Positions 27,731 to 44,930 of a stretch of DNA of 46,880 nucleotides are shown piece after piece. A program made the position numbers and the translations under genes. Source of the stretch: Fibrobacter sp. (GTDB lineage: Bacteria > Fibrobacterota > Chitinivibrionia > Chitinivibrionales > Chitinispirillaceae); contig JAAYIG010000097.1 of assembly GCA_012523595.1 (NCBI GenBank), positions 1 through 46,880 on the forward strand. Reading direction: 5' to 3'. The first letter of the stretch is position 1, and each line of letters begins with the position of its first letter. A model generated the notes under the pieces. It made no database searches. It was not told where the DNA came from and worked only from the letters and a program-made list of their open reading frames with translations.

Positions 27731-27862
27731 ATTTAAAAAAATAAGTTATTTCAGCAGTGTCCGGTTACTTAACTGAATCATTAAATCTACCGCCCACTGC
27801 TGAAGTTCTTTATATACGGAGGGAAGATGATTTTATTACATGTCCCAGCCAGCACCTGAATT

Positions 27863-30827: not shown

Positions 30828-30900
30828 TTAAATTCTGATTCACCTCACAGGTGAATCGGTGACTTAAAGGCTTAAGTCAATGTTTCATCTCAGAGGTAAT
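30828..30900. repeat. Structured palindromic mini-element (GATTCACCT-CAC-AGGTGAATC plus TGACTTAA-AGGC-TTAAGTCA), copy B
   Basis: Its reverse complement matches 121-180 at about 36 of 40 positions in the core. Confidence 0.6.
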
Positions 30901-31753: not shown

Positions 31754-32068
31754 TTGGAGGCAATCCTGACCTATATCACTACCAAAGACAAACAACAGGC
31801 CCGTCTCATAGGCAAAACTCTTGTAGAGGAGCGGCTCGCTGCTTGTGTCAATATTATCGACGGGATGCAATCAATTTATTGGTGGGAAGGTGCCATAAGC
31901 GAGGACAATGAGGCAATCCTTATCGCCAAAACAAGAAACAGTCTTCTTGAGAAACTGACCAACAGAGTAAAATCACTCCATACTTACACCTGCCCCTGTA
32001 TAATTGCCATTCCAATCTCCGGAGGAAACAGGGATTACCTAGGGTGGATAAAAGAGACCACTGATTAA
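31754..32068 (+). CDS. cutA: Divalent-cation tolerance protein CutA
   Basis: 104-aa ORF with a TTG start and AGGAGG at 31741-31746. CutA1 signatures are present (…RLAACVNII…YWWEG…EAILIAKT…). Its stop codon lies inside an ACCACTGATTAA repeat. Confidence 0.85.
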   Translation: MEAILTYITTKDKQQARLIGKTLVEERLAACVNIIDGMQSIYWWEGAISEDNEAILIAKTRNSLLEKLTNRVKSLHTYTCPCIIAIPISGGNRDYLGWIKETTD

Positions 32069-32090
32069 CCTGATCAATCTGAAATAGTCT
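32057..32090 (+). repeat. 9-bp-phased TGATT array starting ACCACTGATTAA (TGATT 32062, TGATC 32071, TGAAA 32080)
   Basis: Its first unit encodes the CutA C-terminal …TTD plus the TAA stop. Confidence 0.7.
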
Positions 32091-32241
32091 TGAACTGTGG
32101 TTCCTGTGATTAAGATGATTGGGATGATTTCTGGATGGATTCCTGCTTGCGCCAGGAAGGACGTGAGGGAAAATGTTCTGTTGTAAATAGTGCCTGTCAC
32201 CTCCAGGTGTCATGTCTGTGAAAACAGGCATCCAGGCCAAG

Positions 32242-32284
32242 ACCACTGATTAACCTGATTGTCCTGATCAATCTGAAACAGTCT
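32242..32284 (+). repeat. 9-bp-phased TGATT array starting ACCACTGATTAA (four units: 32247, 32256, 32265, 32274)
   Basis: It starts 185 bp after the 32057 copy. It shares about 55 bp of downstream sequence (…CAATCTGAAAYAGTCTTGAACTGT…) and has one extra 9-bp unit. Confidence 0.7.
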
Positions 32285-32483
32285 TGAACTGTTATTCCTA
32301 CTCATTTGTCCTTCTCTCCTCTCCGCACCTCTGCGTGAAAATCAATAAGACAATCAGAGAAAAGATTTGTTTTCCATAATCGTATTCACCATTCGATTCC
32401 GACCAAACCCGATCCAGACGACATACAATGGTCATTTAGAATACAATTTACCCTTTAGTCAACTGAAATAAATACTGCTGAAT

Positions 32484-33356
32484 ATGAAACAAATAAATAT
32501 GAAGAAATTGATTCCTGCTTTTATTATCATAGCCATTATCTTTATCTCCAGCCCTGTTTCACTTCAAGCCGGAGAAACAATCCCTGAGAAATATATCTCG
32601 CTTATCGATTCAATTCCTGATTATTACCAGCGTGACAACACTTTCGGTGGCTTCCCTGGTAAAGGTGCCCTTTATTGCGGTCCCGTCTCTATCTCCAATT
32701 TTCTTTTCTGGTACGGACTAAATGGCTACCCCAGACTTCTGGATAATTCAGGTGACCACAAAAAGGACCAGTACAATCTGATCAGGAAAATCGGTTCATC
32801 ACGATACATCAATACAGGCTCTCATGGCTCCAGTCCAGCAGACATTTCATCCGGATTGAAGAGATTTCTTGCCGACCACGGCTACGATTCTGTAAAGATA
32901 AAGTTTTATGGATTCAGAGATGTTCCCAATGAGTTCAAGACCGGTATAGCAATTCCTGATATGAAAACCGCCCGTGAAGCATTGTACCAAAACAAAGCTG
33001 TGCTCTTCAATATCGGCTGGTACCGCTACGACAAGAACAAAGATGAGTACCGTAGAAATGGTGGGCACTGGGTAGCGCTTGCAGGTTACGGCCATGATGG
33101 AAAAAAAGATGACCCGAACAGCATGATCATTCACGATCCTGACACCAGGCTACGGAAAAACGATTATCTGAAAACAGAAGAGATAAAAAGCGGAAAACTA
33201 ACGGGGCGCCTCAAGGGACTTCCCAGAGATGCAGCAGGATACAGGCGATATAGAATCAGCAACAACAAGTTCGGGGTAATCGGAGGGATGCTGATTCTTG
33301 AGATGGACAAATCCGGCTCTCCCATCCTGCCGGTTGCAGAATCGGTATCTAAATGA
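32484..33356 (+). CDS. Secreted papain-fold cysteine peptidase, C39-like domain protein
   Basis: 290-aa ORF with a signal peptide (…LIPAFIIIAIIFISSPVSLQA). Candidate catalytic residues are Cys in …YCGPVSISNF… and His/Asp in …NGGHWVALAGYG… and …MIIHDPD…. Confidence 0.5.
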   Translation: MKQINMKKLIPAFIIIAIIFISSPVSLQAGETIPEKYISLIDSIPDYYQRDNTFGGFPGKGALYCGPVSISNFLFWYGLNGYPRLLDNSGDHKKDQYNLIRKIGSSRYINTGSHGSSPADISSGLKRFLADHGYDSVKIKFYGFRDVPNEFKTGIAIPDMKTAREALYQNKAVLFNIGWYRYDKNKDEYRRNGGHWVALAGYGHDGKKDDPNSMIIHDPDTRLRKNDYLKTEEIKSGKLTGRLKGLPRDAAGYRRYRISNNKFGVIGGMLILEMDKSGSPILPVAESVSK

Positions 33357-33377
33357 TACACCAACCCGGATTCAACA

Positions 33378-34253
33378 TTACTTATCTGTATTCAGAATCA
33401 ACGGCAGCCCATCCTTGCCGCCTACAATCACAACCTTGGCATTTGAAGAGTTGGCAAGCTTCTCTGTGGCCTCGATACCCTTCCACTGGAGCAGCTCCCT
33501 GTTTATTCCCTCAGAAACTATCTTCTGGAAATCAGCTATACCCTGTGCTTCGATTCTCTTACGTTCAGCTTCCAGCTTCTCTTTTTCGAGCACAAACTGC
33601 ATACGCTGGCTTTCCTGCTCTGCACGGAGTTTCTCCTCGATGGCATCAGCGACTTTAGGAGGAAGTTGTATGTTCCGTAAAGGTGTACTTTCTACAACTA
33701 TTCCACGGGATTCAACGATTTTTTTCAGTTCCTCCGCTATTCCGGTGGCAAGTATCTCTCTTACAGACGTGTAAAGAGCCTTGGCTTCATAGTTTGAGGT
33801 GACAGTCCGGATAGCCGAACGAAACTGCGGAACAAGGATTATCTCTTCGTAAATCGCACCGACTGTTTTGTAAACCTCCGGAGCCGCCTCAGGATCAAGA
33901 TGATAGAGCAGACTGACTTCAAGATTAAGCGAGAGACCTTCCTGAGTCGGAACACTGGTCTCCTCCTTTATCTCCCTGGTTTTTATGCTCATTTTAATAA
34001 CTTTCGCAAAGGGATTGACCAGATTGATACCAGGCTTCAGAACATTTTTTGAAACATTACCGAAAAAATCCACGACTCCCACGTTGCCCGCGGGGATAAC
34101 AACGATCGCTTTATAGATAAGAAGAGCAGATCCGGAAAGAACCGCCACAATTCCGGTCAGCTTTGGATTGGGAACACTTCTGTTTGGGGGATAGGAAAAA
34201 AGAACGATTCCAAGAATAACGAGCAATACTGCAATAATAAAAGCCATAAACAA
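33378..34253 (-). CDS. SPFH/Band-7 (prohibitin/HflK-C-like) domain membrane protein
   Basis: 291-aa ORF with an N-terminal transmembrane helix, an SPFH core (…VVIPAGNVGVVDFFG…) and a C-terminal coiled-coil rich in E/K/R/Q. Confidence 0.85.
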   Translation of the reverse strand: MFMAFIIAVLLVILGIVLFSYPPNRSVPNPKLTGIVAVLSGSALLIYKAIVVIPAGNVGVVDFFGNVSKNVLKPGINLVNPFAKVIKMSIKTREIKEETSVPTQEGLSLNLEVSLLYHLDPEAAPEVYKTVGAIYEEIILVPQFRSAIRTVTSNYEAKALYTSVREILATGIAEELKKIVESRGIVVESTPLRNIQLPPKVADAIEEKLRAEQESQRMQFVLEKEKLEAERKRIEAQGIADFQKIVSEGINRELLQWKGIEATEKLANSSNAKVVIVGGKDGLPLILNTDK

Positions 34254-34266
34254 AAACCTCCGAAAA

Positions 34267-34962
34267 CTAAAACAACTGACGCATCATGTCCCACATCCGC
34301 TGCATTGACATGAAATTGTTGTTTGGCCCAAACGCCGCTTCTGAATGAATATCTTTTCCATTTCCAGTGATAAGGTTTTTACCCGCAAGCACACTGGAAC
34401 TTAACTGAAGATGAAGGCCGACATTGTTTTCAGTAATTATGTTTCCGGAAAGAAGCGGAGAGGCGAAATCCACCGCAATACCATAGGTATTCCGATTGAA
34501 CTTGCAGTTCTGCACAGGAGGAGCCGCTTTCTTTGTGCAGTAAATGGCATAATGATTTCCGGTGAATTGACAGGAATCAAAAGAGGGACTGGATTCCCAG
34601 ATCAGGTTTCTGTAAGCTCCTTCGAAACGGCAGTTTCTGAAATGCCCGTGCGCATTCTTCCCCACAATCTCGATTCCCTTCCAGGCGGGTTTTTCACGCG
34701 ATGAGGTTTCGCGATCCAGACCCGAAAAAAGCACAGGCTCTGACAAAGTCCCTTCTGCAATGATCAATCCGTTGACACGCAGAACATGATACCCCTCGAA
34801 CAGTACTTTTACTCCCGGTGCAACAACTAATGTAGTCCCGAATGGAATCTCGATACTCTGCTGGAAAACTGTATCACGTGTAATCTCTATCTTTACTGCA
34901 TCACCTGCAAATATTGGAAGGGCGGTGAGAAAAAAACAAACCATCAAGAGGAAATTTTTCAT
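34267..34962 (-). CDS. Secreted right-handed parallel beta-helix repeat protein
   Basis: 231-aa ORF with a signal peptide (MKNFLLMVCFFLTALPIFAG) and repetitive beta-helix rungs with N/G/C-rich turns. It is a paralog of 21514-22440 and 36853-37902. Confidence 0.5.
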   Translation of the reverse strand: MKNFLLMVCFFLTALPIFAGDAVKIEITRDTVFQQSIEIPFGTTLVVAPGVKVLFEGYHVLRVNGLIIAEGTLSEPVLFSGLDRETSSREKPAWKGIEIVGKNAHGHFRNCRFEGAYRNLIWESSPSFDSCQFTGNHYAIYCTKKAAPPVQNCKFNRNTYGIAVDFASPLLSGNIITENNVGLHLQLSSSVLAGKNLITGNGKDIHSEAAFGPNNNFMSMQRMWDMMRQLF

Positions 34963-34974
34963 AAATGAATCCGT

Positions 34975-35796
34975 TTACTCGATGTACTCCATATGAACTA
35001 TCTCACTCCAGCTCATACCCGGAAACTCATCTGCCAGAGGGGCCTTAAACTCTGCATGAGCAGTGGTAATACGTCTGGCATCGAGATCAAGCAAAACTCT
35101 CCCCCGGCCTTTACCTGCAAGCGGAAATTTGTCAAGCATACCTGCTGTATCAGGATCGATCAGTTCTATTCTGTAAGAAAAGATCCAGCTTACAGCGGCA
35201 AATCTGGATTGCGAGGTATATATGCTGTCGAAAACAAAAGACTGGTAAAGATGTCCCACTGCGTCCCCATGGCTTGTTTCAATTGGGAACTGACGATCAC
35301 GGTCCCATTTGTCGCCAGGTGCCACAGGACTCTCCGGAAATACTGGAAGAACTTTCGCAAAACTCCTGAATAGATCCCACCCCCCGATATTAATAACCGG
35401 AACATCCGTAGTATCAGTCAGATCAAGCGATCCATCTCTGGGTGAAAAAAGAAGAGAGACATTATCAAACTGCTGCTCAAGGTTCCGAATCTCCTGTTCA
35501 ACCAGAAAATCGGAATTTATTCGGGTCTGCTCAGCTTTAAAAGTGATAACTTTTCTGTTTTCAGGAGAGAGCCCGCCCTGAAGGAAAGTTCTCAGACTAC
35601 TATTAAAAATCTGAGGCACACCCTCCGATACAATTTTTCCCTTTATGTCTACTCCGAGTAGATACCGCCAGGTCTTTGCACTGTCAAAGTCGACTTCAAG
35701 AAAGATTCTTCCGCTCTTCTGGCAGGAAACAGTAAACAGGAAAGCAATCGATAACAGAGCCGGCTTAAGCATCGAGATAAGGTGTTTTTCTTGCAT
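34975..35796 (-). CDS. Hypothetical lipoprotein
   Basis: 273-aa ORF with a signal peptide and lipobox-like …FTVSC. It heads the operon with the beta-helix and SPFH genes. Confidence 0.45.
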   Translation of the reverse strand: MQEKHLISMLKPALLSIAFLFTVSCQKSGRIFLEVDFDSAKTWRYLLGVDIKGKIVSEGVPQIFNSSLRTFLQGGLSPENRKVITFKAEQTRINSDFLVEQEIRNLEQQFDNVSLLFSPRDGSLDLTDTTDVPVINIGGWDLFRSFAKVLPVFPESPVAPGDKWDRDRQFPIETSHGDAVGHLYQSFVFDSIYTSQSRFAAVSWIFSYRIELIDPDTAGMLDKFPLAGKGRGRVLLDLDARRITTAHAEFKAPLADEFPGMSWSEIVHMEYIE

Positions 35797-35914
35797 TCAG
35801 TACTTCAGATAGATACAATTATGTTGAAAATAAGCGGATCCGCTGATTGTCCTGTAATAACGCCGGATCATCTGTTTAAACAGAACTATAATTATAAATA
35901 ATGCTCCGCCGAAC

Positions 35915-36856
35915 ATGAAACCTCTGCTGAAAAAATACAAAGCCGGAACAATTCTTTTCCATGAGAATGACCACTCACGTGAACTGTATATAATTCAAAC
36001 CGGGAAGGTCAAAATCTACAGGATGATCGGCAAGCATGAAATGCAACTGACTGTACTTGGCGAGGGGTCTGTGCTTGGAGAAATGGCACTGATCGATGGA
36101 GAACCAAGAAGCGCCTCTGCCAAAGTGATCGAAGACAGCGATCTGATACAACTCGATTCGGAAACTTTTAATGAAGAGATAGAAGGAGTTCCTCCATGGT
36201 TCATGACTATCATCAAGATGACAAGCCAGAAGATATACCAGGCAAAACGCCGCCTTCAGAACAAAAGCAGTGAGCATCAGGGCGCCAACATCATAATAAC
36301 AATCCTTTATTTCTTCAATTTTTACGACAAACAGAGCAACGGCCTGGATATCAGTCAAACCCGGCTGAAACTTGTACAACTGCTTGGAGTCACTTTGCAA
36401 AAAGCAACCCATATTATCTCATTTCTGCACGGAAAAGGATTTCTTGAGATTAAAGATGAAAAGATGTTTCTTTGCTGCCGCAAAGAAATGGAGGATTACT
36501 GCAGTTTTCTGAGATTACTTATCCGTAAACAGTTTGAGGTACTCCAGCCACTGGATAATGAGGCTTTCGGGATAGTCGAGAAGATCTGGAATACCAAGGG
36601 AGGAATCAGAAAATTCGAAGAAGGATTAACAGAGATAAGCGGAGATGTTTTCTTAAGCTTTGTCGAAAACACCTCTTATTCATCAAACCCAGATGAGTTT
36701 CTGGAAATGCTCAGGAGCCAATCCCTGCTGACCTATACCAAACCCTGTAAAAATTCCGACAATTCAATTTCAAATTGTGTTCTTAAAATCGACAATATGA
36801 AGTGGAAACGTATTTACCTTTACAGCAAATTCAACCAACTCATACCGGCCGCATGA
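35915..36856 (+). CDS. Crp/Fnr-family regulator (cNMP-binding domain plus HTH) with an extended C-terminal tail
   Basis: 313-aa ORF with a cNMP-binding beta-roll (…GEGSVLGEMALIDGEPRSASAKV…) and a Crp-type HTH (…ISQTRLKLVQLLGVTLQKATHIISFL…). A tail of about 110 aa has no recognisable domain. Confidence 0.65.
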   Translation: MKPLLKKYKAGTILFHENDHSRELYIIQTGKVKIYRMIGKHEMQLTVLGEGSVLGEMALIDGEPRSASAKVIEDSDLIQLDSETFNEEIEGVPPWFMTIIKMTSQKIYQAKRRLQNKSSEHQGANIIITILYFFNFYDKQSNGLDISQTRLKLVQLLGVTLQKATHIISFLHGKGFLEIKDEKMFLCCRKEMEDYCSFLRLLIRKQFEVLQPLDNEAFGIVEKIWNTKGGIRKFEEGLTEISGDVFLSFVENTSYSSNPDEFLEMLRSQSLLTYTKPCKNSDNSISNCVLKIDNMKWKRIYLYSKFNQLIPAA

Positions 36857-37902
36857 AAAAAATCATTTTATTGCTTTCACTTGTTTTTATCTGTGGAGCA
36901 GAGCAGAGAGCAGGCGGTATCCTTACAGTCAATACCCGGTGGGATGCCGATGAGGGGCCATTTATTCTTGAACGAGACCTGGTGATACCCGAGGGTGTCA
37001 GGTTGACTATCGCTCCAGGCACAAATATCATAATTGCGCCATCCCCCATCGCCGATACCTCAAACCAGATCGACAGAACAGATTCTCTATCAATCTCCAT
37101 CAAGGTTCTCGGAGGAGCACTTATCTGCGTCGGACGACGAGATAAACAAATAAGCTTCTCTCCTTCAGAACCGCAGCCTGGAAGGCACTCATGGTATGGA
37201 ATAATTCTTAATGCCGCCGAAGAACCATTCACTGAGATCGCTTTTACAGAAATCAGCGGCGCATACTGTGCCTTGTCAATAATGAAATGCAGTCCTGTGA
37301 TCCGTAACAGTATACTGGAATACAACTATCTTGGAATTAACTGTATCAATAAGAGTTCTCCTCAGATCCTTAACTGTGTAATCTGCCGAAATTTCGCGTC
37401 TGGAATAAAAACCCGTGAATCAAATCCCTTCATTACCAGCAGCATCATCGCCTTCAACAGCAACACCGGAGTCTGGTGTGACGGGTTATCAAAAATCAAT
37501 TTTGAATACAATTGCGTTCACGGTAACGGGGACGGTAATCTCCTCGATTGTGATCCTGAACTGGGAATACTGACAAAAACAAACAAAAACAAGGACTCCT
37601 GCGACTTGCACTTCAACCTTTACCGCGATCCGGTATTTGCCGGTTCTTTAGCAGATTCCATCGCTCATGAACAGGATATCTCTGTTCCTACAAAGAAAAG
37701 CAGGATAAAGAATTTTGCTCTGGCCAGAATTATCCACGATGAAGATACGGCTAAACAAAAAGTCAAAACCAGGACAGGAAAATACAGCCTGTCGAATTAT
37801 TCCCCATGTATAAATGCCGGTAATCCAGCTGACAGGTTCAAAGACGCAGATGGCTCGAAAAACGACATGGGTGTCGAGGGAGGACGAGAATTTTACCACT
37901 GA
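36853..37902 (+). CDS. Secreted right-handed parallel beta-helix repeat protein
   Basis: Start placed at ATG 36853 (MKKIILLLSLVFICGA, signal peptide), which overlaps the Crp-like gene stop (ATGA). The six-frame ORF extends upstream to 36802. Its stop TGA lies inside a CACTGATTAAG repeat. Confidence 0.55.
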   Translation: MKKIILLLSLVFICGAEQRAGGILTVNTRWDADEGPFILERDLVIPEGVRLTIAPGTNIIIAPSPIADTSNQIDRTDSLSISIKVLGGALICVGRRDKQISFSPSEPQPGRHSWYGIILNAAEEPFTEIAFTEISGAYCALSIMKCSPVIRNSILEYNYLGINCINKSSPQILNCVICRNFASGIKTRESNPFITSSIIAFNSNTGVWCDGLSKINFEYNCVHGNGDGNLLDCDPELGILTKTNKNKDSCDLHFNLYRDPVFAGSLADSIAHEQDISVPTKKSRIKNFALARIIHDEDTAKQKVKTRTGKYSLSNYSPCINAGNPADRFKDADGSKNDMGVEGGREFYH

Positions 37903-37936
37903 TTAAGCTGATTAAAATGATTTAGCTGATTTTTTA
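37895..37936 (+). repeat. 9-bp-phased TGATT array starting ACCACTGATTAA (four units at 37900, 37909, 37918, 37927)
   Basis: The first TGA is the stop codon of the 36853-37902 gene. Confidence 0.7.
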
Positions 37937-38003
37937 AGAGAATAAGATCTCCCGTATCTGAGTATACTCGATCTAATACAATAACCCGTCTTCTTTCCAC
38001 ACG

Positions 38004-38033
38004 AGATGATTTGAATGATTTACCTGATTATCC
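38004..38033 (+). repeat. 9-bp-phased TGATT array, degenerate start (three units at 38007, 38016, 38025)
   Basis: GAGATGATTTGAATGATTTACCTGATTATCC. Confidence 0.55.
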
Positions 38034-38085
38034 AGAGAATGAGATCTCTGATATCTATAACACAGACACAGGACAATCCTCGATA

Positions 38086-39261
38086 TCACCTGTACTCTAT
38101 GACTCCATGAAATGCCCTGAAACAGAACCCAACAGGTCTGAGTCTCTCGCCCATGTAACTGTCGTAAGTGACAAGCCACAAACTGAAATGCTTTGCTCTT
38201 CTATCAAGCGGCGGCAGTAACTTCACATCGTTTGATCCCGGCGTTCTCTGAATCACAAGCAGCTTGTCATGATCCTGTCCTTCAGGGGGATAATCGTTGC
38301 GGTAAAACCATTCATGAATGAAAGTCTCAGGGTGAAGACTTCCTGAAGTCATACTCATACCATAATCAAGGGAAGCTGTACCGGGGTCGGGAATCAGAAA
38401 ATAGCTGTACCCATCCTCGATAAGCACAGTATCACTGAAAACCCCCTTCAAATCGTAGACTGCATCCACTAAAGAGGCATCTTTTACAGGGTGAAAGGAA
38501 AGGAGCGAGCTGCCTCTAACCTTGTAAAGTTTCATCCATTCTATAACCGGATTTCTATTGACCTGTACCGATGAATTAAGATACCGGATTGTACTGTTAT
38601 AACGGATCGTGAAGTCTGATTCAACCTTGCATTTATCATTAACATAAGAGAATATCTTCATTGTTACCGACAGTGCCTGAAGGAGAAGCGGCATGAAATC
38701 CGGGGCATCCTCCCCTGCGATGTCCCTGAGCATCGAATCAACCATCAGTGAGTCGACTCCATCCGGACGGCTTGCCAGAAAATCAAGAATGTCAATAACC
38801 TGGACCGGCTTCACCATCAGTAGCTCCGGAGGAACCGAGTCGCGGACCTCTGAGGGAAGAATCTCCCCCATAGTACTTACATACTCATATTTCCTGCGAA
38901 TGATATCCCACGGGAGTACAAAAGAGAAGACCACCGAATCTGTCAATCCTCCACTATACTCCATGTAACTTCCAGGCACAACAAGGGACTGAAGAGAAAT
39001 AACATCATAGTAGGTATCCACCCCGAAAGATCCAAGCAGCACAGTAGTTGAGATAGTCCACTGAATTCTATTTACCTCTTCACCCGCGAAATAAGCATGA
39101 AGATCCACGGTGTCACCCGGAGCCCCCTCTGCCAATCCCCTGTTATCGAATACGAAAGCCAATGGCCTGACCCTGTCATTATCCACCCGATCATACCTGT
39201 CCGGAAACTCCAACCCGCATCCTGCAAGCAGTAAAGAGATAAATAGAGCCATTCTTTTCAT
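38086..39261 (-). CDS. Hypothetical lipoprotein
   Basis: 391-aa ORF with a signal peptide and lipobox (…LLLAGCG). It lies downstream of the TonB-dependent receptor gene. Confidence 0.45.
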   Translation of the reverse strand: MKRMALFISLLLAGCGLEFPDRYDRVDNDRVRPLAFVFDNRGLAEGAPGDTVDLHAYFAGEEVNRIQWTISTTVLLGSFGVDTYYDVISLQSLVVPGSYMEYSGGLTDSVVFSFVLPWDIIRRKYEYVSTMGEILPSEVRDSVPPELLMVKPVQVIDILDFLASRPDGVDSLMVDSMLRDIAGEDAPDFMPLLLQALSVTMKIFSYVNDKCKVESDFTIRYNSTIRYLNSSVQVNRNPVIEWMKLYKVRGSSLLSFHPVKDASLVDAVYDLKGVFSDTVLIEDGYSYFLIPDPGTASLDYGMSMTSGSLHPETFIHEWFYRNDYPPEGQDHDKLLVIQRTPGSNDVKLLPPLDRRAKHFSLWLVTYDSYMGERLRPVGFCFRAFHGVIEYR

Positions 39262-39273
39262 GGCTTACTCCTG

Positions 39274-42018
39274 TCAAAACTCCACTTTCAGTCCAAAGGA
39301 TGGAATGAAGGGTGAAGTTACAGATATCTGTTCCGTGTAATCATAGTTGTAAATCGTGAGCTCAGGGCTTTTATACATGAACCATAGTACATTCTGCAGA
39401 TCCAGATAAAAAGACATCATCCACTTGTCATATATAATCTTTTTGTCAATCCGGAAATCGACCTGGAAAAAGGGGTCGTTACGGGCACTGTTCTCTCTCC
39501 CCATCTTGGGTTCATAGATGCGGTTAGTAATATTAAACACCCGGTCAGCAACTGGTGTAAATGGATTGCCGCTGACATAACGCACTTTTGCACCTGCCTG
39601 CCACTCCTTTGGCAGTTTATAACTGAGAATAAGCTGGAGATTATGGGTCTGATCACGGGTATATGGAATATACCTGTTCTCCCTCCGGCTCCAGCGTTCA
39701 CTTCTGGACAAAGTATAAGCAATCCATCCGAAGAACCGCTCGCTTTGTTCGTGACGGAGCATTAATTCCAGTCCATACATGCGAGCCCGTCCCCAATCCA
39801 GAAAACCGGGAGTGCTTTGGTCATTAAGCATATCAGTAGGTGTGGCCAGCTCAGGAATGTCCCACTGCGTGTTACGATATATCTGCACATCGGCATAGAG
39901 CAGATCAGAAATCTTCCACTGATATCCACCTGTAATATGGCTGGCTTTTGTCGCCGGAAGCATGGGGTTACCTACAGTGTCATGGATTGTAAAACCCATT
40001 GGCTGCGGAGTCTGGCTGTAGGAACCAACAGCCGCTTTAAAGGAATGCCGGGAATTTAACTTGTAACCGGCTGAAAGGCGCACTGATGGCTCCCCACTGG
40101 GCCCTTTTTCATTGTCAATTTTCCGGTAATCCCAGAACTCGGGCACTATCGACCCCCTGTAAAGCAGTTCCGGGTAGTAATCATATCTGAGTCCGGGAAT
40201 TATATACAGATCGGGAATCGGGTTGTATTCAAGCTGTAAATATGGACCGATAAGGCCGAATGTCGTTTTCATCGTATCCCGGAAAAATGTCTTGTCGGTT
40301 CTTGGAAAGACAGCATAGTGATAATAGGGTTGCAGCCATAGATCAGTTCCGGTGGTCAGCTTAATCTGAGGAGATATTTTACACGACGCCTCGGCACGGA
40401 GCAGATACTCCCACGCCTTATAAGTCCATTTGGCGTACCCGAAAATGGATCCAAGTCCCTCTCTTTGCACCACAGCAGCCCTCAAGCTGTTCACCCACCT
40501 CCCCGCACTGAAATCCCATCCCAACGTAGCCATATTGAATGCATTGACATTTTCCAGCCTGTCAACCATCTGATCGACTTCACTGCTTCCACCCCTCATA
40601 AAGGGCACAATCATCTTAAGTTCATCCTTGGAACCAAAAAGAGTCATGAAAAGCTTGTTTCCCGCATCGAGATCCACATCCGCCCTGACAGTGTAATCGT
40701 AATAATAAGGGACAACACTTATAGGCATGTTAAGTTTATCACCGATCTTTTTAACCACAACCCCCAGAATATCCCCGAAATAGCTTCTTCGCACATTGGC
40801 AAGTATTCCACCCCTGGATCCTATCGGTCCCTCTGCGAAAAAAGTGGCATCAAACAGATTTACATCGGCAAATCCCTTTGCCCTCTGCCTGTCGGCATTT
40901 CTGCTCTGAAGCTCAATGACTCCCGCAACTGAATTACCATACCGTGAACTGTACCCTCCTGGATAAAGATCAACCGATTCCAGAGCCTCGGAATTGTATG
41001 TGGATTTAATCCCACCGAAATGGTAAAGCATCGGTATCGATACCCCGTCAAGATAAAACTTCGAATCCCAGGTAGGTGCACCCCTCACTCTGATAGAGCC
41101 CCCTCCAAATGAGGAGCGCCCCACCCCGGGAAGCGCCTGTACCACTTTCACCGCATCTCCAGAGAAACCGGGGATTTTCCTCACCTCTCCTCTGGAAAGG
41201 GATCTTCTGGAAACTTCGCGGGACTCTGTTCTCCCATAAACCACTATCTCCAGATCTGAATAGCTTGTCCTCTGCAGTCTGTAAACAACCTCTGTAACCT
41301 CTCCGCAGGCAACTGTATCCCTCATCTCAAAAGGCTCACATCCCGCAGCAGATACCCTGACCCTAACCGGACCGCAGGGTAGAGATTTGAAGGAGAACTT
41401 TCCGGATGAATCACTGACGGTGGTAATACTTCCCTGCTCTAAGCTCTGTCCGGAAAGCCTTCCTATTTGATTTATATAGACACTAAAAGGGACATTCAGT
41501 GAGGAATCTGCAAGGGTATCTGTAAAAAACACCGCCACATCAGCATCGGTTACAGGTGTTCTGGTACCCCTTTCGTAAAGAAATCCGGTAAAATTCACAT
41601 TCTCCCCTACCCCCTCCAGCACATCTTCCAGAGCCACGGTATATTGATAAGTGATTATTACCGGGACTTTTTTCCCATCCGCTTCTGCAGGAGAAAACCT
41701 GAACCTTCTCACAGCATCCATTACCGCTCTGTCAAGCTCAGGATGAACCCCATTAATCAGTGCTACACTGTCAACATCGCCGTTTTCATTCACAAGGAGA
41801 TCCACCGTTACCGTACCCTCTATTCCTTTTCGGGATAGTACAGATGGATATTCCAGTTTTACAAATTCGATCAGTTCAGGTTCTTTCTCAAGGATAAAGG
41901 ACTCTTTCTCCGAAGAATCTGCCATATCAATCGATGATTCTACACCCGGTTCAGTCCCTGAATACACATCCTGAAAAGCAAAACCAGCCAACAGAAACAC
42001 ACAGAGTAAACTTCTCAT
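39274..42018 (-). CDS. TonB-dependent outer-membrane receptor with an N-terminal TonB C-terminal-like domain and a CarboxypepD_reg-like domain
   Basis: 914-aa ORF. After the signal peptide comes a TonB_C-like segment (…EYPSVLSRKGIEGTVTVDLLVNENGDVDSVALINGVHPELDRAVMDAVRRFRFSP…), then a plug-like region (…GNSVAGVIELQSR…) and a large beta-barrel ending in a terminal Phe (…FGLKVEF). Confidence 0.7.
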   Translation of the reverse strand: MRSLLCVFLLAGFAFQDVYSGTEPGVESSIDMADSSEKESFILEKEPELIEFVKLEYPSVLSRKGIEGTVTVDLLVNENGDVDSVALINGVHPELDRAVMDAVRRFRFSPAEADGKKVPVIITYQYTVALEDVLEGVGENVNFTGFLYERGTRTPVTDADVAVFFTDTLADSSLNVPFSVYINQIGRLSGQSLEQGSITTVSDSSGKFSFKSLPCGPVRVRVSAAGCEPFEMRDTVACGEVTEVVYRLQRTSYSDLEIVVYGRTESREVSRRSLSRGEVRKIPGFSGDAVKVVQALPGVGRSSFGGGSIRVRGAPTWDSKFYLDGVSIPMLYHFGGIKSTYNSEALESVDLYPGGYSSRYGNSVAGVIELQSRNADRQRAKGFADVNLFDATFFAEGPIGSRGGILANVRRSYFGDILGVVVKKIGDKLNMPISVVPYYYDYTVRADVDLDAGNKLFMTLFGSKDELKMIVPFMRGGSSEVDQMVDRLENVNAFNMATLGWDFSAGRWVNSLRAAVVQREGLGSIFGYAKWTYKAWEYLLRAEASCKISPQIKLTTGTDLWLQPYYHYAVFPRTDKTFFRDTMKTTFGLIGPYLQLEYNPIPDLYIIPGLRYDYYPELLYRGSIVPEFWDYRKIDNEKGPSGEPSVRLSAGYKLNSRHSFKAAVGSYSQTPQPMGFTIHDTVGNPMLPATKASHITGGYQWKISDLLYADVQIYRNTQWDIPELATPTDMLNDQSTPGFLDWGRARMYGLELMLRHEQSERFFGWIAYTLSRSERWSRRENRYIPYTRDQTHNLQLILSYKLPKEWQAGAKVRYVSGNPFTPVADRVFNITNRIYEPKMGRENSARNDPFFQVDFRIDKKIIYDKWMMSFYLDLQNVLWFMYKSPELTIYNYDYTEQISVTSPFIPSFGLKVEF

Positions 42019-42098
42019 CAGTACCTACCTCGACCCTGGAATCAACAACCGGGTGAAGACCGGCTATATCTTTTAAATAAGCAAGCAATGGACCGCTG

Positions 42099-42140
42099 AC
42101 CACTGATTAATCTGATTAGACTGATTGCGATGATTATTCA
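42099..42140 (+). repeat. 9-bp-phased TGATT array starting ACCACTGATTAA (four units at 42104, 42113, 42122, 42131)
   Basis: It lies in the intergenic region between tonB and the TonB-dependent receptor gene, both on the minus strand. Confidence 0.7.
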
Positions 42141-42289
42141 GGAGAGATGAATTTGTTCTTGTTGTAAAGTGTTCAGGCTGGAAAATAGTTGTGGAACTTT
42201 GGACAGGAATTTATTCTTCTTATGAAAGATTTCAATACCGGATTGGGGGAACCTTTAAATGTGGATACAAATAAGAATACCGGAGAAGA

Positions 42290-43096
42290 TCAACCCTGGG
42301 TGAGTTCGAAGCGGAAACGTACTATCTGCCACACAGCTACCGGCTCCTCACCTCTGAGTGCCGGTTCAAATACCAGTTTCAGGCAGGCATCATAGACTTT
42401 CTCTTTAGATCCATACCCCAGATCATCAAGCACAATGACCTGTTTTATCTTTCCATCACTGTCAATTAACACTTTTGCCCTCACCACTCCCTCAATTCTT
42501 TTCTCCAGCATCTCTCTTGAGTACTCAGGCTTTACCCTGACCTTCAGACGCGGAACCCTTGTGACAGTGGTAGCAGAGACAACCTGTCCCTGAAGATCCT
42601 CGTTTGTTGCCTTGAAAGTGTCAATTTCGGTATTGAGAGTGTTTCCCAGTTTTCCTATCACCGCATCAGAACGGCTCCCCTGCGCACCCAGACCGGTGGA
42701 GTAAACTCTCCTGAGCCCATAGACCCTCCGGGGAGCCTTCTTCGATGATTCCACCTGTTTTTCCTCCACAGTTTCATCGACTTTCTGATTCAACAGAGGC
42801 TTCTCTGTTAAATCAATCGGCTTTCCACTCTCTTTCTTTTTTTCAGGCTCTGCCTTTTTCTTCTTTACTTCAGGAATAACTTCCGTCTTTTTCTGATCTA
42901 TAATAAACCTTGCTGCCGACTCGACTATTCTCCTCTCTTCAACACGGGGATCGGGCTTGCGCAAATGCAGAAATATCCCGCTAAGAGCAAACAGGAGAGA
43001 AAAGAAGAGAAGATAGACAGGGAAAAAGTCTCTTCCTCCGGATTGTCTTCCGGAAAGGGCATAGAGTTCAAGCATCTTTTTCCGGGCAGAATCCAC
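42290..43096 (-). CDS. tonB: Energy transducer TonB
   Basis: 268-aa ORF with an N-terminal transmembrane anchor, a Lys/Glu/Pro-rich spacer and a TonB_C domain (…VKPEYSREMLEKRIEGVVRAKVLIDSDGKI…). Confidence 0.75.
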   Translation of the reverse strand: MDSARKKMLELYALSGRQSGGRDFFPVYLLFFSLLFALSGIFLHLRKPDPRVEERRIVESAARFIIDQKKTEVIPEVKKKKAEPEKKKESGKPIDLTEKPLLNQKVDETVEEKQVESSKKAPRRVYGLRRVYSTGLGAQGSRSDAVIGKLGNTLNTEIDTFKATNEDLQGQVVSATTVTRVPRLKVRVKPEYSREMLEKRIEGVVRAKVLIDSDGKIKQVIVLDDLGYGSKEKVYDACLKLVFEPALRGEEPVAVWQIVRFRFELTQG

Positions 43097-43099
43097 GTG

Positions 43100-43561
43100 C
43101 TACTCCTCCCGGACCACCAGTACCAGAAAATCGGTAAACCCGGCTTTGGAACAGGTATACATGATTTTTTTGACCGCTGCAAACTGAATATCTCTGTCAC
43201 ACTGAATCACCAGTTCGCTTCCCGATGAATCACTGCTTCTCTGACGCATCGCTTTCATCCATTCATAAACCAGGGGCACAAGAAGAGAATCCCCTGACAA
43301 AAGCGAATCGGTATCAACCAGAACACGTCCCTCGCTGATTACCGATTTTTTTGTAATTTCAATGGAGCTGCGTACCCGGGGAGTTTCCTCTGAAGTGGAC
43401 ACTGGAAGAACCAGATCTGCTGCAGGAGTCACAAGGCTTCCCTCGGAGGAAAAGCTCTTTATCAGAAAGACCAGCAGAATTGTCATTACGTCAACCAGCG
43501 ATGTCAACTGGGGGCGTACGGTGCCATCAATGGGAGCCGATTTCTGCGGCAAGATGCTCAT
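43100..43561 (-). CDS. exbD: Biopolymer transport protein ExbD/TolR
   Basis: 153-aa ORF with a single transmembrane helix (…LTSLVDVMTILLVFLI…) and the ExbD fold size. Confidence 0.8.
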   Translation of the reverse strand: MSILPQKSAPIDGTVRPQLTSLVDVMTILLVFLIKSFSSEGSLVTPAADLVLPVSTSEETPRVRSSIEITKKSVISEGRVLVDTDSLLSGDSLLVPLVYEWMKAMRQRSSDSSGSELVIQCDRDIQFAAVKKIMYTCSKAGFTDFLVLVVREE

Positions 43562-44040
43562 AGAGCTGCTCCCGGATCAGCAGTGGCACTGGAAAGACCC
43601 ACTTTTTTAAATCCTGCCTGCCTGCAAAGATCCATCACCCTGACAACATGCTTGAAAGGGATGTTGTCTCTCGATGCCACTATCACCTCATCATACCCAA
43701 GCTCGGCCACCCGCATCCTGATCCGTGCAGACAGCGTATCAAAAGGAAATTCAGACCCGACAGCCAGCGAGTCCAGCATTCTTTCTCCAAGCACAATCCC
43801 CAAATAATCGGTTCCGATGCGTACAGTCAATCTGGGAACAGGCTTCTCAGAGGCATCACCAACACTTGTGCCCAAATCCGGGGGAAGAGAAAACTCGACA
43901 ATGGCATGATGAGTAAAAACAGCCATCGATACCAGAAAAGGAATAAGAATGATAAATACATTCATGACAGGTGTCACATCGACATCTGCGTTGTCAATAG
44001 TCTGTGAGGGAGGATGGCTGGAGCGAAACAGAGAAAGCAT
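43558..44040 (-). CDS. exbD: Biopolymer transport protein ExbD/TolR (second copy)
   Basis: 160-aa ORF (…VTPVMNVFIILIPFLV…). Its stop overlaps the downstream exbD start, and its start overlaps the exbB stop (ATGA). Confidence 0.8.
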   Translation of the reverse strand: MLSLFRSSHPPSQTIDNADVDVTPVMNVFIILIPFLVSMAVFTHHAIVEFSLPPDLGTSVGDASEKPVPRLTVRIGTDYLGIVLGERMLDSLAVGSEFPFDTLSARIRMRVAELGYDEVIVASRDNIPFKHVVRVMDLCRQAGFKKVGLSSATADPGAAL

Positions 44041-44672
44041 CAGGATTTCTTCTTTTTCAGGTAGTTAAGGAACTTTACGACAGCTTCGTCAAGATCCTTG
44101 GTCAATTGATTCTGCTTGTTTACCAGAAAAGTGTATGCTACCATGCAGGGGACAGCTACAATCAGCCCGAAAGCAGTGGTGATCATCGCCTGGGAGATAC
44201 CGGTGGCCAGAAGCGCAGCCTTTTTTGCGGCATCAACTGTTGCAAGTGAAGAGAACGACAACTGTAAACCGGTAATAGTACCCAGAAGCCCCAGCAAAGT
44301 GGCGATATTGGCAAACAGAGAAAGGTAATTTAACCTCTGTGAGAGTCTTGGAACCTGCTGAATCGCAGCCTCTTCAACCCCCTCCCGGATCTCATCGATT
44401 GGCAGACCGGAGTTAAATCTCTCCAGCGCAGTCCTGAACAACACCTGCAGAGGAGCACGACCACGGCTTAAAAGCTCACCAGCCTCCCTGGACTTGTCAC
44501 TATTGAGCAGACCTGCTACCTGAGAGAGAAGCTGATTTCCCTTCCTGCCGCAGACTATATAGAAGAATATGATCCTATCTGCAACAACTGTACAGGAAAA
44601 TGCCAGAACAGCAAGAATAGCCCACATAAAAGGCCCACCATCATTGAACCACTCAGCCAGAAATTTCACCAT
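44040..44672 (-). CDS. exbB: MotA/TolQ/ExbB proton-channel protein
   Basis: 210-aa ORF with three transmembrane helices and a conserved C-terminal helix pair (…LSLFANIATLLGLLGTITG…). Confidence 0.85.
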   Translation of the reverse strand: MVKFLAEWFNDGGPFMWAILAVLAFSCTVVADRIIFFYIVCGRKGNQLLSQVAGLLNSDKSREAGELLSRGRAPLQVLFRTALERFNSGLPIDEIREGVEEAAIQQVPRLSQRLNYLSLFANIATLLGLLGTITGLQLSFSSLATVDAAKKAALLATGISQAMITTAFGLIVAVPCMVAYTFLVNKQNQLTKDLDEAVVKFLNYLKKKKS

Positions 44673-44767
44673 ACTTTCTTTCCTCCACAGGGAAAAGCCC
44701 TAAGCATTTTTCTCCAACATCCTGGAAATATGTTCTCTGAAATATATCACTTAGAAAAAACATGCCA

Positions 44768-44822
44768 AACCACTGATTATGACCACTGATTAAACTGATT
44801 TTAATGATTAACCTGATTAGAA
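44768..44822 (+). repeat. 9-bp-phased TGATT array with duplicated head (AACCACTGATTAT GACCACTGATTAA…; five units at 44774, 44787, 44796, 44805, 44814)
   Basis: It lies in the intergenic region between the DUF438-like gene and exbB. Confidence 0.7.
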
Positions 44823-44930
44823 ACTGTACTGAACCCCTTCTTATTGCGTGCTCGAACAAAAACAGAGCGATTACAAACACCTTTGGTGCTAAAGCACGAT
44901 GGAAAAGAAATTATCTACATGGATAATTCG

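What the first reader, a model, noticed from the sequence alone, without database searches (positions are those of the whole stretch)
32057..44822. Dispersed family of 9-bp-phased TGATT mini-arrays sharing the 12-mer ACCACTGATTAA
Six arrays in this window consist of 3-5 tandem units in which TGATT, or a degenerate TGATC/TGAAA, recurs exactly every 9 bp. They start at 32057, 32242, 37895, 38004, 42099 and 44768. Four of them begin with the identical 12-mer ACCACTGATTAA, as does the second head of the 44768 array (at 44782). An exact 12-mer seen five times in 47 kb is far beyond chance. All arrays are intergenic or lie at gene 3' ends, and none is a hairpin. A 9-bp spacing places successive units on a slowly rotating face of the helix. 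That fits an oligomeric DNA-binding protein such as a regulator, a partition or nucleoid protein, or a replication-type iteron. I do not recognise the motif as a DnaA box, Chi, KOPS, dif or a known operator. The number of copies in so small a window points to a genome-wide dispersed element.
Basis: seen in the sequence. Interest (0 to 1): 0.75.

Follow-up and report, generated by a model that had tools for sequence, protein, structure and literature searches.

The report
Orphan arms of GxxExxY mini-cassettes
The 9-bp TGATT arrays are real and match the terminal repeats that flank a small, widely transferred nuclease-like gene (GxxExxY) in many other bacteria; here they are gene-less single-arm copies, most likely selfish-DNA remnants rather than host regulatory sites.

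Summary
ACCACTGATTAA occurs 5 times (0 expected). TGATT-N4-TGATT occurs 14 times (0.3 expected). All hits are on the + strand between 32 and 45 kb, and a seventh array lies at 32105.

The arrays are not private to this genome. The same head plus 9-bp GATT units recurs across the FCB group and beyond. There it forms the arm of 85-155-bp inverted-repeat elements with the layout tGTCTGAACCnCTGATT...AATCAGnGGTTCAGACa.

These arms also bracket a ~125-aa GxxExxY / PF13366 PD-(D/E)XK gene. Every GxxExxY gene I examined carries such arms: six independent gene copies found by protein homology, plus four found next to arrays. In 66 of 120 close homologues the C-terminal tail is (NQx)n, the in-frame translation of the right arm.

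The window comes from a Chitinispirillaceae-like bacterium from anaerobic digesters. It holds only gene-less single arms that lack the GTCTGA tip. These arms gain and lose units between ~93%-identical lineages and are absent from syntenic genus-level relatives, so they are not conserved operators. None folds as a hairpin.

Best reading: MITE-like remnants of a mobile GxxExxY cassette. What the 9-bp modules do is inferred, not shown. No description of this arm family turned up in my searches.

The parts
32057..32087 (+). Array 1a: ACCACTGATTAAC CTGATCAAT CTGAAATAG. The CutA stop codon (TAA, 32066-32068) lies inside the 12-mer head.
32087..32104 (+). GTCTTGAAC-TGTGGTTCC. This is a tip-like motif, a variant of the canonical terminal GTCTGAAC. 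The same TGTCTTGAAC variant heads the left arm of a GxxExxY gene in L153.
32105..32143 (+).
32242..32298 (+). Array 2: ACCACTGATTAAC CTGATTGTC CTGATCAAT CTGAAACAG, followed by GTCTTGAACTGTTATTCC. It lies 186 bp upstream of the + strand gene at 32484.
37895..37951 (+). Array 3: ACCACTGATTAAG CTGATTAAA ATGATTTAG CTGATT, followed by the tail AAGAGAATAAGATCTC. The stop codon of the NosD-like gene (TGA, 37900-37902) lies inside the head. The array is present in the ~93%-identical lineage L137/L144.
38005..38048 (+). Array 4: gATGATTTGA ATGATTTAC CTGATT, followed by the tail CAGAGAATGAGATCTC. It has no 12-mer head. It is a partial copy of array 3 lying in a 109-bp segment that is absent from L137.
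42096..42135 (+). Array 5: CTGA-CCACTGATTAAT CTGATTAGA CTGATTGCG ATGATT. It lies between tonB (3' end at 42290) and the start of the TonB-dependent receptor gene (42018), both on the - strand.
42139..42178 (+). Tail of array 5: CAGGAGAG ATG AAT TTG TTC TTG TTG TAA AGTGTTCAGGC. It may be the remnant of a deleted cargo region ending in a degenerate right tip (GTGTTCAGGC versus GGTTCAGAC). 22 bp of it are absent in L137. This reading is inferred.
44768..44837 (+). Array 6: AACCACTGATTATG ACCACTGATTAAA CTGATTTTA ATGATTAAC CTGATTAGA, followed by AACTGTACTGAACCCC (tip-like). The four-unit body is absent in L144. The head abuts the best sigma-70-like promoter of the exbB operon on the - strand (TTGGCA-16-TGaTATATT, 44768..44741).

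Best explanation
The arrays are gene-less, single-arm copies (MITE-like derivatives or decaying remnants) of the terminal repeats of a small mobile gene cassette. The cassette's cargo is a ~125-aa GxxExxY protein (Pfam PF13366 PDDEXK_3, TIGR04256), a predicted PD-(D/E)XK nuclease of unknown function.

Shown, full element: in the full element a left arm (tGTCTGAACC-n-CTGATTAA, then CTGATT/ATGATT units every 9 bp) runs up to the gene's ATG. An inverted right arm ((AATCAGnnn)n-AATCAGnGGTTCAGACa) overlaps or follows its stop codon.

Shown, derivatives: internal deletion gives 85-155-bp palindromic elements, and further decay gives single arms.

Shown, this window: the Chitinispirillaceae-like lineage of this window carries a variant that keeps the ACCACTGATTAA head and the 9-bp units but has lost the GTCTGA tip and the partner arm. 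Copies were gained within this lineage, and they expand and contract by unit-sized and larger indels.

Inferred, not shown:
(i) Spread depends on the cassette's machinery supplied in trans, most plausibly the PD-(D/E)XK protein, with the phased CTGATT modules acting as its multiple recognition sites. This would parallel the subterminal repeats of transposons.
(ii) The 9-bp period is a whole number of codons. It persists because arms routinely overlap the ends of reading frames, so unit gain or loss never shifts frame. The head supplies TGA and TAA stops to the upstream gene.
(iii) In this window the copies have no dedicated host function. They do have side effects: they provide the stop codons of cutA and of a NosD-like gene, make up most of the 183 bp between two convergent genes (8 bp apart in a relative), and sit against the -35 box of the exbB promoter.
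For: Family outside the window.
- A scan of one genome per species with ACCACTGATTAANNTGATT hit its 120-locus limit. True multi-unit arrays occurred in Chitinispirillaceae, Ignavibacteria, Melioribacter, many Bacteroidota, Calditrichota, Latescibacterota, Raymondbacteria, Desulfobacterota and others.
- An information profile over 57 copies shows conservation only from -6 (GTCTGA) to about +37, with GATT every 9 bp.
- 14 complete inverted-repeat elements were found, six of them within 8 kb of Cytophaga aurantiaca DSM 3654.

Link to the gene.
- I compared all ORFs within 1.5 kb of arrays in 60 loci against each other. The top recurrent family (four loci from different genomes) was a single small protein; the only other family recurring in three loci was an ABC-type ATPase. 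It scores PF13366 E=2e-38 and TIGR04256 E=2e-40.
- In L084 the gene is exactly bracketed: GTCTGAACCACTGATTAAATTGATTAAATGATTTAACT|ATG ... AAT CAA CGT AAT CAA ATA AAT CAG ATA AAA TCA TAG|TTCAGACA.
- I then sampled genes by protein homology, without reference to arrays. All six independent copies reached this way (L152, L153, L154, L155/L156, L159/L160, L164) and the second copy found beside one of them (L155b) carry the arms.
- 66 of 120 close homologues end in N[QH]xN[QH]. 21 end in NQRFR, which is AAT CAG CGG TTC AGA, the translated terminal repeat.
- A second gene subfamily has co-varying arms (TGTCAGAATCAC, with GGATT/AGATT units).
- Homologues are 79-99% identical across phyla. A published survey records multiple transfers for PDDEXK_3 (PMC3424549).

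Window copies.
- They align to the left arm of gene-bearing cassettes over the first ~45 nt.
- Array 4 and the body of array 6 are absent in a ~93%-identical lineage, and array 5 differs there by 7-bp and 22-bp indels.
- Syntenic relatives with ~70% ExbB identity have no arrays. Their convergent genes lie 8 bp apart, against 183 bp here.
- In 16 of 30 arrays whose head faces a gene's 3' end, the stop codon lies in or within 26 bp of the head.
Against: - No GxxExxY gene was found in the window or in the ~15 kb of flanking strain sequence I could reach. An active partner in this genome is therefore unproven.
- The window copies lack the canonical TGTCTGAACC tip, which is not enriched in the window (38 matches at up to 2 mismatches against 44 expected). 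They also lack any inverted partner.
- No target-site duplication could be defined, and the element ends are fuzzy.
- No transposition, nuclease activity or DNA binding has been shown for any GxxExxY protein.
- All seven window arrays share one orientation within 13 kb. A random-insertion model does not predict this, though for six independent sites p is only about 1/32.
- Much of the cross-phylum identity could reflect transfer of whole restriction-modification islands that carry the cassette, rather than autonomous mobility.
Confidence: 0.62

Rival explanations
1. The arrays are host operator or nucleoid-site arrays. An oligomerising host DNA-binding protein nucleates on ACCACTGATTAA and spreads over the 9-bp CTGATT sites to regulate or organise neighbouring genes, here the TonB/ExbBD cluster.
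For: Tandem unspaced short repeats are a known operator format (from established knowledge: MetJ 8-bp boxes, omega-repressor 7-bp heptads). The units keep CTGATT while the three spacer bases vary freely. Direct and inverted arrangements both occur. Arrays 3-6 punctuate the tonB/exbBD/receptor cluster. Array 6 abuts the -35 box of the best promoter-like site.
Against: The arrays are absent from the same intergenic regions in syntenic relatives. They are variably present, or altered by indels, in a ~93%-identical lineage. Orientation and distance to gene starts are inconsistent in the window and in 60 other loci. The tight, reciprocal linkage to a selfish-looking gene is unexplained by this model.
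Confidence: 0.13
2. The elements act at the RNA level. The two arms pair into a long interrupted stem that is processed (for example by RNase III, as for 23S rRNA intervening sequences), or that terminates or stabilises transcripts. On this view the window copies are degenerate halves.
For: Complete elements fold at -26 to -54 kcal/mol. Arms of gene-bearing cassettes pair with z-scores of -3.6 to -6.4 against shuffles. In the same operons, PF05635 genes are also bounded by inverted repeats. From established knowledge, PF05635 is the ORF of 23S rRNA intervening sequences.
Against: The window arrays do not fold (z from -1.3 to +1.0) and have no partner arm. The sense strand is not favoured over the antisense strand. 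In many elements the spacer triplets are not complementary between arms while CTGATT is kept on both, which points to a motif constraint rather than a pairing constraint. Window arrays would be read as UGAUU in some transcripts and as AAUCA in others.
Confidence: 0.1
3. The elements are integron-like attC recombination sites. The palindromes (...TCTGAAC ... GTTCAGA...) would be attC-type sites recombined by a tyrosine recombinase, and the same-orientation arrays in the window would be a cassette-array remnant.
For: The size range (85-155 bp), imperfect palindromy, AAC...GTT ends and single small ORF cargo resemble attC cassettes. All window arrays share one orientation.
Against: TCTGAAC and GTTCAGA each miss the RYYYAAC / GTTRRRY consensus at 2 positions. 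The ORF lies inside the palindrome, not beside it. No integrase is seen in any locus. The window segments between arrays are multi-gene and on both strands. The cassettes sit in restriction-modification operons, not in cassette arrays.
Confidence: 0.04
4. The arrays arose as local tandem-repeat expansions that happen to resemble one another, with no common origin or shared partner.
For: Unit-level indels between close lineages show that slippage does operate on the arrays.
Against: An identical 12-mer head occurs five times against 0 expected. The same head plus units occurs in dozens of unrelated genomes.
Confidence: 0.02

Closest known systems
MITEs (miniature inverted-repeat transposable elements) and their parent elements
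   Same: Both are short, non-coding and multi-copy and sit mostly in intergenic DNA. Relatives of the window arrays have terminal inverted repeats. A longer form with the same ends carries a gene. Presence and absence differ between close lineages.
   Different: The cargo is a 125-aa PD-(D/E)XK-fold protein, not a recognised transposase. No target-site duplication was found. The arms are built from 9-bp-phased modules. The window copies are single arms without the terminal tip.
REP / BIME / REPIN elements with RAYT (Y1) transposases, and ERIC elements of enterobacteria
   Same: All are interspersed extragenic repeats that occur singly, in direct pairs or in inverted pairs, in mosaic arrangements. 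Their sequence is conserved over an unexpectedly wide taxonomic range, as for ERIC. REPs are linked to one small gene flanked by the repeats, the RAYT.
   Different: REPs are 20-40-bp palindromes with GTAG or CGTC heads. The arms here are 40-50-bp non-palindromic module arrays. The linked gene is PF13366, not PF01797. A PF01797 gene sits just outside this window but is flanked by a different repeat.
23S rRNA intervening sequences carrying the PF05635 ORF (the 'four helix bundle protein'; from established knowledge, described in Leptospira and Coxiella)
   Same: Both consist of a tiny ORF enclosed by inverted repeats that can form a long stem. PF05635 genes co-occur with GxxExxY genes as passengers in the same type I restriction-modification operons and have inverted repeats of their own.
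   Different: The repeat sequences are unrelated and have no 9-bp modules. The insertion target here is not rRNA.
Subterminal transposase-binding repeats (Tn7 TnsB sites, Mu ends, plant CACTA/En-Spm 12-bp motifs)
   Same: Both show several phased short motifs inside each terminal arm, capped by a distinct tip.
   Different: The known units are 12-22 bp long and bind characterised transposases. Here the units are 9 bp long and binding is only inferred.
Tandem short operators (MetJ 8-bp met boxes, omega-repressor 7-bp heptads, plasmid iterons)
   Same: Both are unspaced tandem short repeats, in direct or inverted arrangement, read cooperatively.
   Different: Those sit at conserved regulatory positions next to their regulon or replicon. 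These arrays are not positionally conserved and travel with a selfish gene.
Neisseria DNA uptake sequences (GCCGTCTGAA)
   Same: They share the heptamer GTCTGAA with the canonical tip. DUS are also often found as intergenic inverted pairs (paper hit: PMC3868556).
   Different: DUS are single 10-12-mers without module arrays or a linked gene, and they occur in a different phylum. The resemblance is probably coincidental, and the window copies lack the tip.

Membership tests
Terminal arms of GxxExxY (PF13366) cassettes (family defined here) | Head ACCACTGATTAA (or CCnCTGATTAA) followed by at least two GATT-containing units in 9-bp register | tested here: met
   Five window heads are identical to the heads of arms in L084 and L077 and of elements in L101. 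The register is confirmed.
Terminal arms of GxxExxY (PF13366) cassettes (family defined here) | Terminal tip tGTCTGAAC immediately 5' of the head | tested here: not met
   The window heads are preceded by gag, aag, ttt, ctg or atg. TGTCTGAACC is not enriched in the window (38 against 44 expected). Only displaced variants occur (GTCTTGAAC at 32087 and 32281, GTACTGAAC at 44825). Copies in the Chitinispirillaceae MAG also lack the tip.
Terminal arms of GxxExxY (PF13366) cassettes (family defined here) | Inverted partner arm within about 50-500 bp | tested here: not met
   There are no TGATT or GATT arrays on the - strand anywhere in the window.
Terminal arms of GxxExxY (PF13366) cassettes (family defined here) | Adjacent PF13366 gene | tested here: not met
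   tblastn finds no homologue in the window or in the strain flanks. The window copies are gene-less.
MITE | Terminal inverted repeats | tested here: not met
   This is not met in the window, which holds single arms only. It is met by 14 related elements in other genomes.
MITE | Target-site duplication | tested here: inconclusive
   The flanks of 14 elements show no consistent duplication. The ends grade into a CAATTG-like palindrome.
MITE | Related longer element with the same ends that encodes the mobilising enzyme | tested here: inconclusive
   A gene-bearing form with the same ends exists. Whether its PD-(D/E)XK product mobilises it is unknown.
MITE | Insertion polymorphism between close relatives | tested here: met
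   Array 4 (with 109 bp of sequence) and the body of array 6 are absent from the ~93%-identical lineage. All arrays are absent from syntenic genus-level relatives.
REP/RAYT system | 20-40-bp imperfect palindrome with a GTAG or CGTC head, flanking a PF01797 gene | tested here: not met
   The arrays are not palindromic. The nearby PF01797 gene is flanked by a different repeat.
Operator / iteron arrays of a host DNA-binding protein | Positional conservation next to orthologous target genes | tested here: not met
   No arrays occur in L138-L141, L143, L150 or L151 despite conserved gene order.
Operator / iteron arrays of a host DNA-binding protein | Binding by a cognate protein | not testable with these tools
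   This needs EMSA, DAP-seq or ChIP.
Integron attC site | R'' RYYYAAC ... R' GTTRRRY boxes, folded bottom strand with extrahelical bases, and an integrase or a cassette array | tested here: not met
   The canonical tips each miss the consensus at 2 positions. No integrase or cassette array was seen. No attC covariance model was available to run.
Known RNA families (Rfam 15) | Covariance-model match at or near the gathering score | tested here: not met
   The window gives only tRNA-Sec. Complete elements elsewhere give only sub-threshold hits to plant miRNA precursors, which are generic long hairpins.

The most novel reading that the evidence does not exclude
The GxxExxY protein is the nuclease or recombinase of a previously unrecognised, roughly 0.5-kb autonomous mobile element, among the smallest known. 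The element is defined by arms of 9-bp-phased CTGATT modules that the protein reads cooperatively. It inserts at gene ends and brings its own stop codons, and sometimes a replacement 3' end, for the host gene. Its gene-less derivatives, of which the window arrays are examples, make up a repeat family across the FCB group. That would assign a function to a very large family of unknown function (more than 8000 hits in each of two searches) and explain a common intergenic repeat of Bacteroidota and their relatives.
Probability: 0.3. Interest if true: 0.8.

Novelty: new variant of a known kind. Interest (0 to 1): 0.6.

Why it matters
GxxExxY / PF13366 is a very large protein family with no assigned function. 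Two searches each returned about 8000 hits, the best 120 being 79-99% identical across phyla. The family is conspicuous as a passenger inside restriction-modification operons. Linking it to a specific, modular terminal repeat, and to gene-less copies of that repeat scattered through FCB-group genomes, gives a concrete hypothesis that can be tested: protein plus arm DNA. It also explains a class of intergenic sequence that gene callers turn into spurious (NQx)n or (LIK)n peptides. It further shows how such inserts reshape host genes, by supplying stop codons, spacing convergent genes and sitting against promoters. For this window alone the consequence is modest. The arrays are best annotated as repeat remnants, not as regulatory sites.

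Tried and rejected
- Rfam gathering and permissive scans of the window and of eight loci found nothing relevant.
- The tRNA/tmRNA scan found only tRNA-Sec, so the idea that the ACCA head is a tRNA 3' end was dropped.
- Folding all array regions on both strands showed no significant structure.
- Literature searches by sequence string returned only primers and the Neisseria DUS paper.
- A search for Bacteroidetes MITE papers found only a lineage-specific IS982-derived MITE of Cardinium, which is unrelated.
- blastn of a consensus arm against PLSDB plasmids gave no match.
- The viral contig scan gave only 10 hits, so the family is not phage-associated.
- A search for arm pairs 0.25-5 kb apart that might enclose a transposase found only ordinary genes between separate elements.
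- The target-site duplication search was inconclusive.
- Sense versus antisense duplex energies showed no strand preference.
- The AlphaFold model of a GxxExxY protein was poor (mean pLDDT 56.5, C-terminal half below 50). I therefore ran no fold search and take the PD-(D/E)XK assignment from Pfam only.
- The PDB sequence search and PADLOC gave no hit, and PHROGs gave only a marginal hit to a family of unknown function.
- A Fur-box or iron-regulon idea for arrays 5/6 was dropped, because the arrays are absent from orthologous TonB clusters.
- The RAYT idea was dropped, because the neighbouring Y1_Tnp gene has its own different repeat.
- Replichore polarity could not be tested on about 62 kb of sequence.

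Full report
**1.
ACCACTGATTAA occurs five times, at 32057, 32242, 37895, 42099 and 44782. All five are on the + strand, and no match appeared in any of 100 dinucleotide-preserving shuffles. TGATT-N4-TGATT occurs 14 times, again all on the + strand, against 0.31 expected. A three-unit degenerate pattern occurs 11 times against 0.02 expected. Tandem Repeats Finder reports period 9 at each site.

It also shows a seventh at 32105-32143 (TGTGATTAAG ATGATTGGG ATGATTTCT GGATGGATT), directly after array 1. Every array lies between 32 and 45 kb.

**2. Context in the window.**
The window is ordinary bacterial chromosome. It carries selA, selB and tRNA-Sec, GH57 genes, cutA, and an exbB-exbD-exbD-tonB operon followed by a TonB-dependent receptor gene.

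- Array 1 starts inside the last codons of cutA (...ACC ACT GAT TAA).
- Array 3 starts inside the last codons of a NosD-like gene (...TAC CAC TGA).
- Arrays 3 and 4 fill most of the 183 bp between two convergent genes.
- Arrays 5 and 6 lie between co-directional genes on the - strand.

So all arrays point the same way, but they bear no constant relation to gene direction. None of the regions folds better than its shuffles, with z-scores from -1.3 to +1.0. Rfam finds nothing at the arrays. The best sigma-70-like site of the region (TTGGCA-16-TGaTATATT, - strand) has its -35 box touching the head of array 6.

**3. The motif is not private to this genome.**
I scanned one genome per species with ACCACTGATTAANNTGATT. 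The scan reached its 120-locus limit. About half of the hits are chance single matches inside genes. The rest are true multi-unit arrays in:

- a Chitinispirillaceae MAG (9 loci);
- Ignavibacteria, Melioribacter and Kapaibacterium;
- many Bacteroidota, including the isolate Cytophaga aurantiaca DSM 3654;
- Calditrichota, Latescibacterota, Raymondbacteria and Desulfobacterota, among others.

Outside the Chitinispirillaceae the head is usually preceded by GTCTGA. An information profile over 57 copies shows conservation only from -6 to about +37, with GATT recurring every 9 bp. 56 of 60 arrays are intergenic. In 16 of the 30 arrays whose head faces a gene's 3' end, the stop codon lies in or within 26 bp of the head.

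**4. In those genomes the array is one arm of an inverted-repeat element.**
Pairing TCTGAAC with GTTCAGA within 220 bp gave 14 complete elements of 85-155 bp. Six of them lie within 8 kb of Cytophaga aurantiaca. Their layout is tGTCTGAACC-n-CTGATT-nnn-CTGATT ... AATCAG-nnn-AATCAG-n-GGTTCAGACa.

They fold at -26 to -54 kcal/mol. To Rfam they look only like generic long hairpins, giving sub-threshold matches to plant miRNA precursors. In some copies the three spacer bases are complementary between the arms. In others they are not, although CTGATT is kept on both arms. Direct (head-to-tail) pairs of arms also occur (L012), as in window array 1a/1b.

**5. Link to a gene.**
I compared all ORFs within 1.5 kb of arrays in 60 loci against each other. 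The top recurrent family, present in four different phylum-level groups, was a single ~125-aa protein; the only other family recurring in three loci was an ABC-type ATPase. It matches Pfam PF13366 PDDEXK_3 (E = 2e-38) and TIGR04256 'GxxExxY protein' (E = 2e-40).

In L084 the gene is bracketed exactly. The left arm is GTCTGAACCACTGATTAAATTGATTAAATGATTTAACT, followed by ATG. The last codons, AAT CAA CGT AAT CAA ATA AAT CAG ATA AAA TCA TAG, followed by TTCAGACA, are the right arm. In L109 the gene ends TTT CAC CAC TGA TTA A, which contains the window's 12-mer.

I then sampled genes by protein homology, without reference to arrays. All six independent copies reached this way carry the arms: L152, L153, L154, L155/L156, L159/L160 and L164. 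So does the second copy found beside one of them, L155b. Together with the four copies found next to arrays, no examined gene lacks them.

Of the 120 closest homologues, 66 end in N[QH]xN[QH]. 21 end in NQRFR, which is AAT CAG CGG TTC AGA, the translated terminal repeat. A second protein subfamility has co-varying arms, with the tip TGTCAGAATCAC and GGATT/AGATT units, still in 9-bp register.

Each search returned about 8000 hits, and the best 120 were 79-99% identical although they come from different phyla. The sampled genes sit as passengers inside restriction-modification operons, next to RhuM and PF05635 genes. A survey of the PD-(D/E)XK superfamily lists PDDEXK_3 as 'Unknown', with multiple transfers (PMC3424549). 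I found no paper linking it to repeats.

**6. Dynamics in the window's own lineage.**
The organism is a Chitinispirillaceae-like bacterium of anaerobic digesters. The nearest named ExbB homologues (65-70% identity) come from Chitinispirillaceae MAGs, and identical genes occur in biogas metagenomes.

Near-identical strains carry identical arrays. A lineage about 93% identical (L137, L144) differs as follows:

- it keeps array 3;
- it lacks array 4 together with 109 bp, a segment bounded in the window by the direct repeat AGAGAATnAGATCTC;
- its array 5 has a 7-bp partial-unit insertion and a 22-bp deletion;
- it lacks the four-unit body of array 6.

Relatives with about 70% ExbB identity and the same gene order have no arrays at all. 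Their convergent genes lie 8 bp apart. The arrays are therefore recent, unstable additions and not conserved operators.

The window copies align with the left arm of gene-bearing cassettes over the first ~45 nt. They lack the GTCTGA tip, a partner arm and a GxxExxY gene. Displaced tip-like motifs do occur: GTCTTGAAC after arrays 1a and 2, and GTACTGAAC after array 6. TGTCTTGAAC is also the tip of a genuine left arm in L153.

**7. Mechanism.**
Shown:

- the arrays are homologous to cassette arms;
- arms and gene are reciprocally linked;
- gene-less palindromic and single-arm forms exist;
- copies are gained, lost and resized within this lineage;
- the heads supply stop codons to upstream genes.

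Inferred:

- The family spreads as a selfish element, and the gene-less copies depend on the cassette's product.
- The phased CTGATT modules are multiple recognition sites for that product.
- The 9-bp period, which equals three codons, persists because arms overlap the ends of reading frames. The head and units close at least two forward frames in all 47 copies examined, and all three frames in 26 of them, while leaving NQx and ISx frames open on the other strand.

One filled-versus-empty comparison (L155 against L157) shows that the insert is preceded by a recoded duplicate of the last ~13 codons of hsdM. The original copy is retained after the element. This suggests that the insert carries a replacement 3' end for the host gene.

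**8. Rivals.**
- A host operator or nucleoid array is disfavoured by the lack of positional conservation and by the linkage to the gene.
- An RNA hairpin role is possible for complete elements. It cannot apply to the unpaired window copies, and I saw no strand preference.
- An attC-like reading fails on consensus, architecture and context.
- Chance or independent local expansion is excluded.

**9. Novelty and verdict.**
By kind, this is a MITE/REP-like repeat derived from a small selfish cassette, so it is not categorically new. The specific system appears undescribed in everything I could search. That system comprises 9-bp-modular arms, a PD-(D/E)XK cargo of unknown function, and distribution across the FCB group. 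In this window the arrays are best annotated as orphan arms of that family. Interest is moderate to high, because the link gives a direct experimental handle on the GxxExxY family.

Noticed in passing
window 1359-1394 (+), 1560-1592 (opposite sense), 10218-10237 (-): A second, unrelated family of mini-arrays with 8-bp-phased (T/C)ACGA units (ACGAGTGT ACGAAGTT ACGACAGC ACGATAGC ACGA). Two sets in opposite sense lie within one 290-bp intergenic region, and a third lies upstream of the gene at 10308. The 1359 and 10218 arrays are also detected in strain contigs L161/L162.
   Followed up: partly
window 30841-30898; L161 11137-11200 and 12590-12690: A REP-like palindrome that shares the 21-mer GTGACTTAAAGGCTTAAGTCA with a repeat lying just upstream of a 321-aa PF01797 (Y1_Tnp, IS200/RAYT-like) gene about 0.4 kb beyond the window's left end in strain contigs. 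Repeats on the other side of that gene share only the flanking CACCTC/GAGGTA motifs. This is a separate candidate REP/RAYT system.
   Followed up: partly
window 44741-44768 (-): The best sigma-70-like promoter of the 31.7-45 kb region (TTGGCA, 16-bp spacer, TG-extended TATATT) lies upstream of exbB. Its -35 box overlaps the end of array 6.
   Followed up: partly
L121 16572-17011: One metagenome assembly of the same strain has a 440-N scaffold gap exactly over arrays 3 and 4. This suggests the repeats break short-read assembly.
   Followed up: no
L155 2990-3700 versus L157 380-480: Insertion of a GxxExxY cassette between hsdM and hsdS is accompanied by a recoded duplicate of the last ~13 hsdM codons. 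EADELLESIANLIV* precedes the element, and ESAEILNSILELI* is retained after it, just before the hsdS ATG.
   Followed up: partly
L154 6440-6900; L156 1600-2040: PF05635 (23S_rRNA_IVP, 'four helix bundle') genes in the same restriction-modification operons are flanked by their own, unrelated inverted repeats (for example AATGGTTAATTG ... CAATTAACCATT). This suggests a wider class of small ORF cassettes bounded by inverted repeats.
   Followed up: no
L121-L124 1-385 (about 8 kb beyond the window's right end): A PF04754 Transposase_31 (Rpn/YhgA-like PD-(D/E)XK) gene lies near the window in strain contigs. No arrays lie next to it.
   Followed up: no
window 27637-27733 (-), 24271-27611 (-): tRNA-Sec lies next to selA and selB, so the organism uses selenocysteine.
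   Followed up: no
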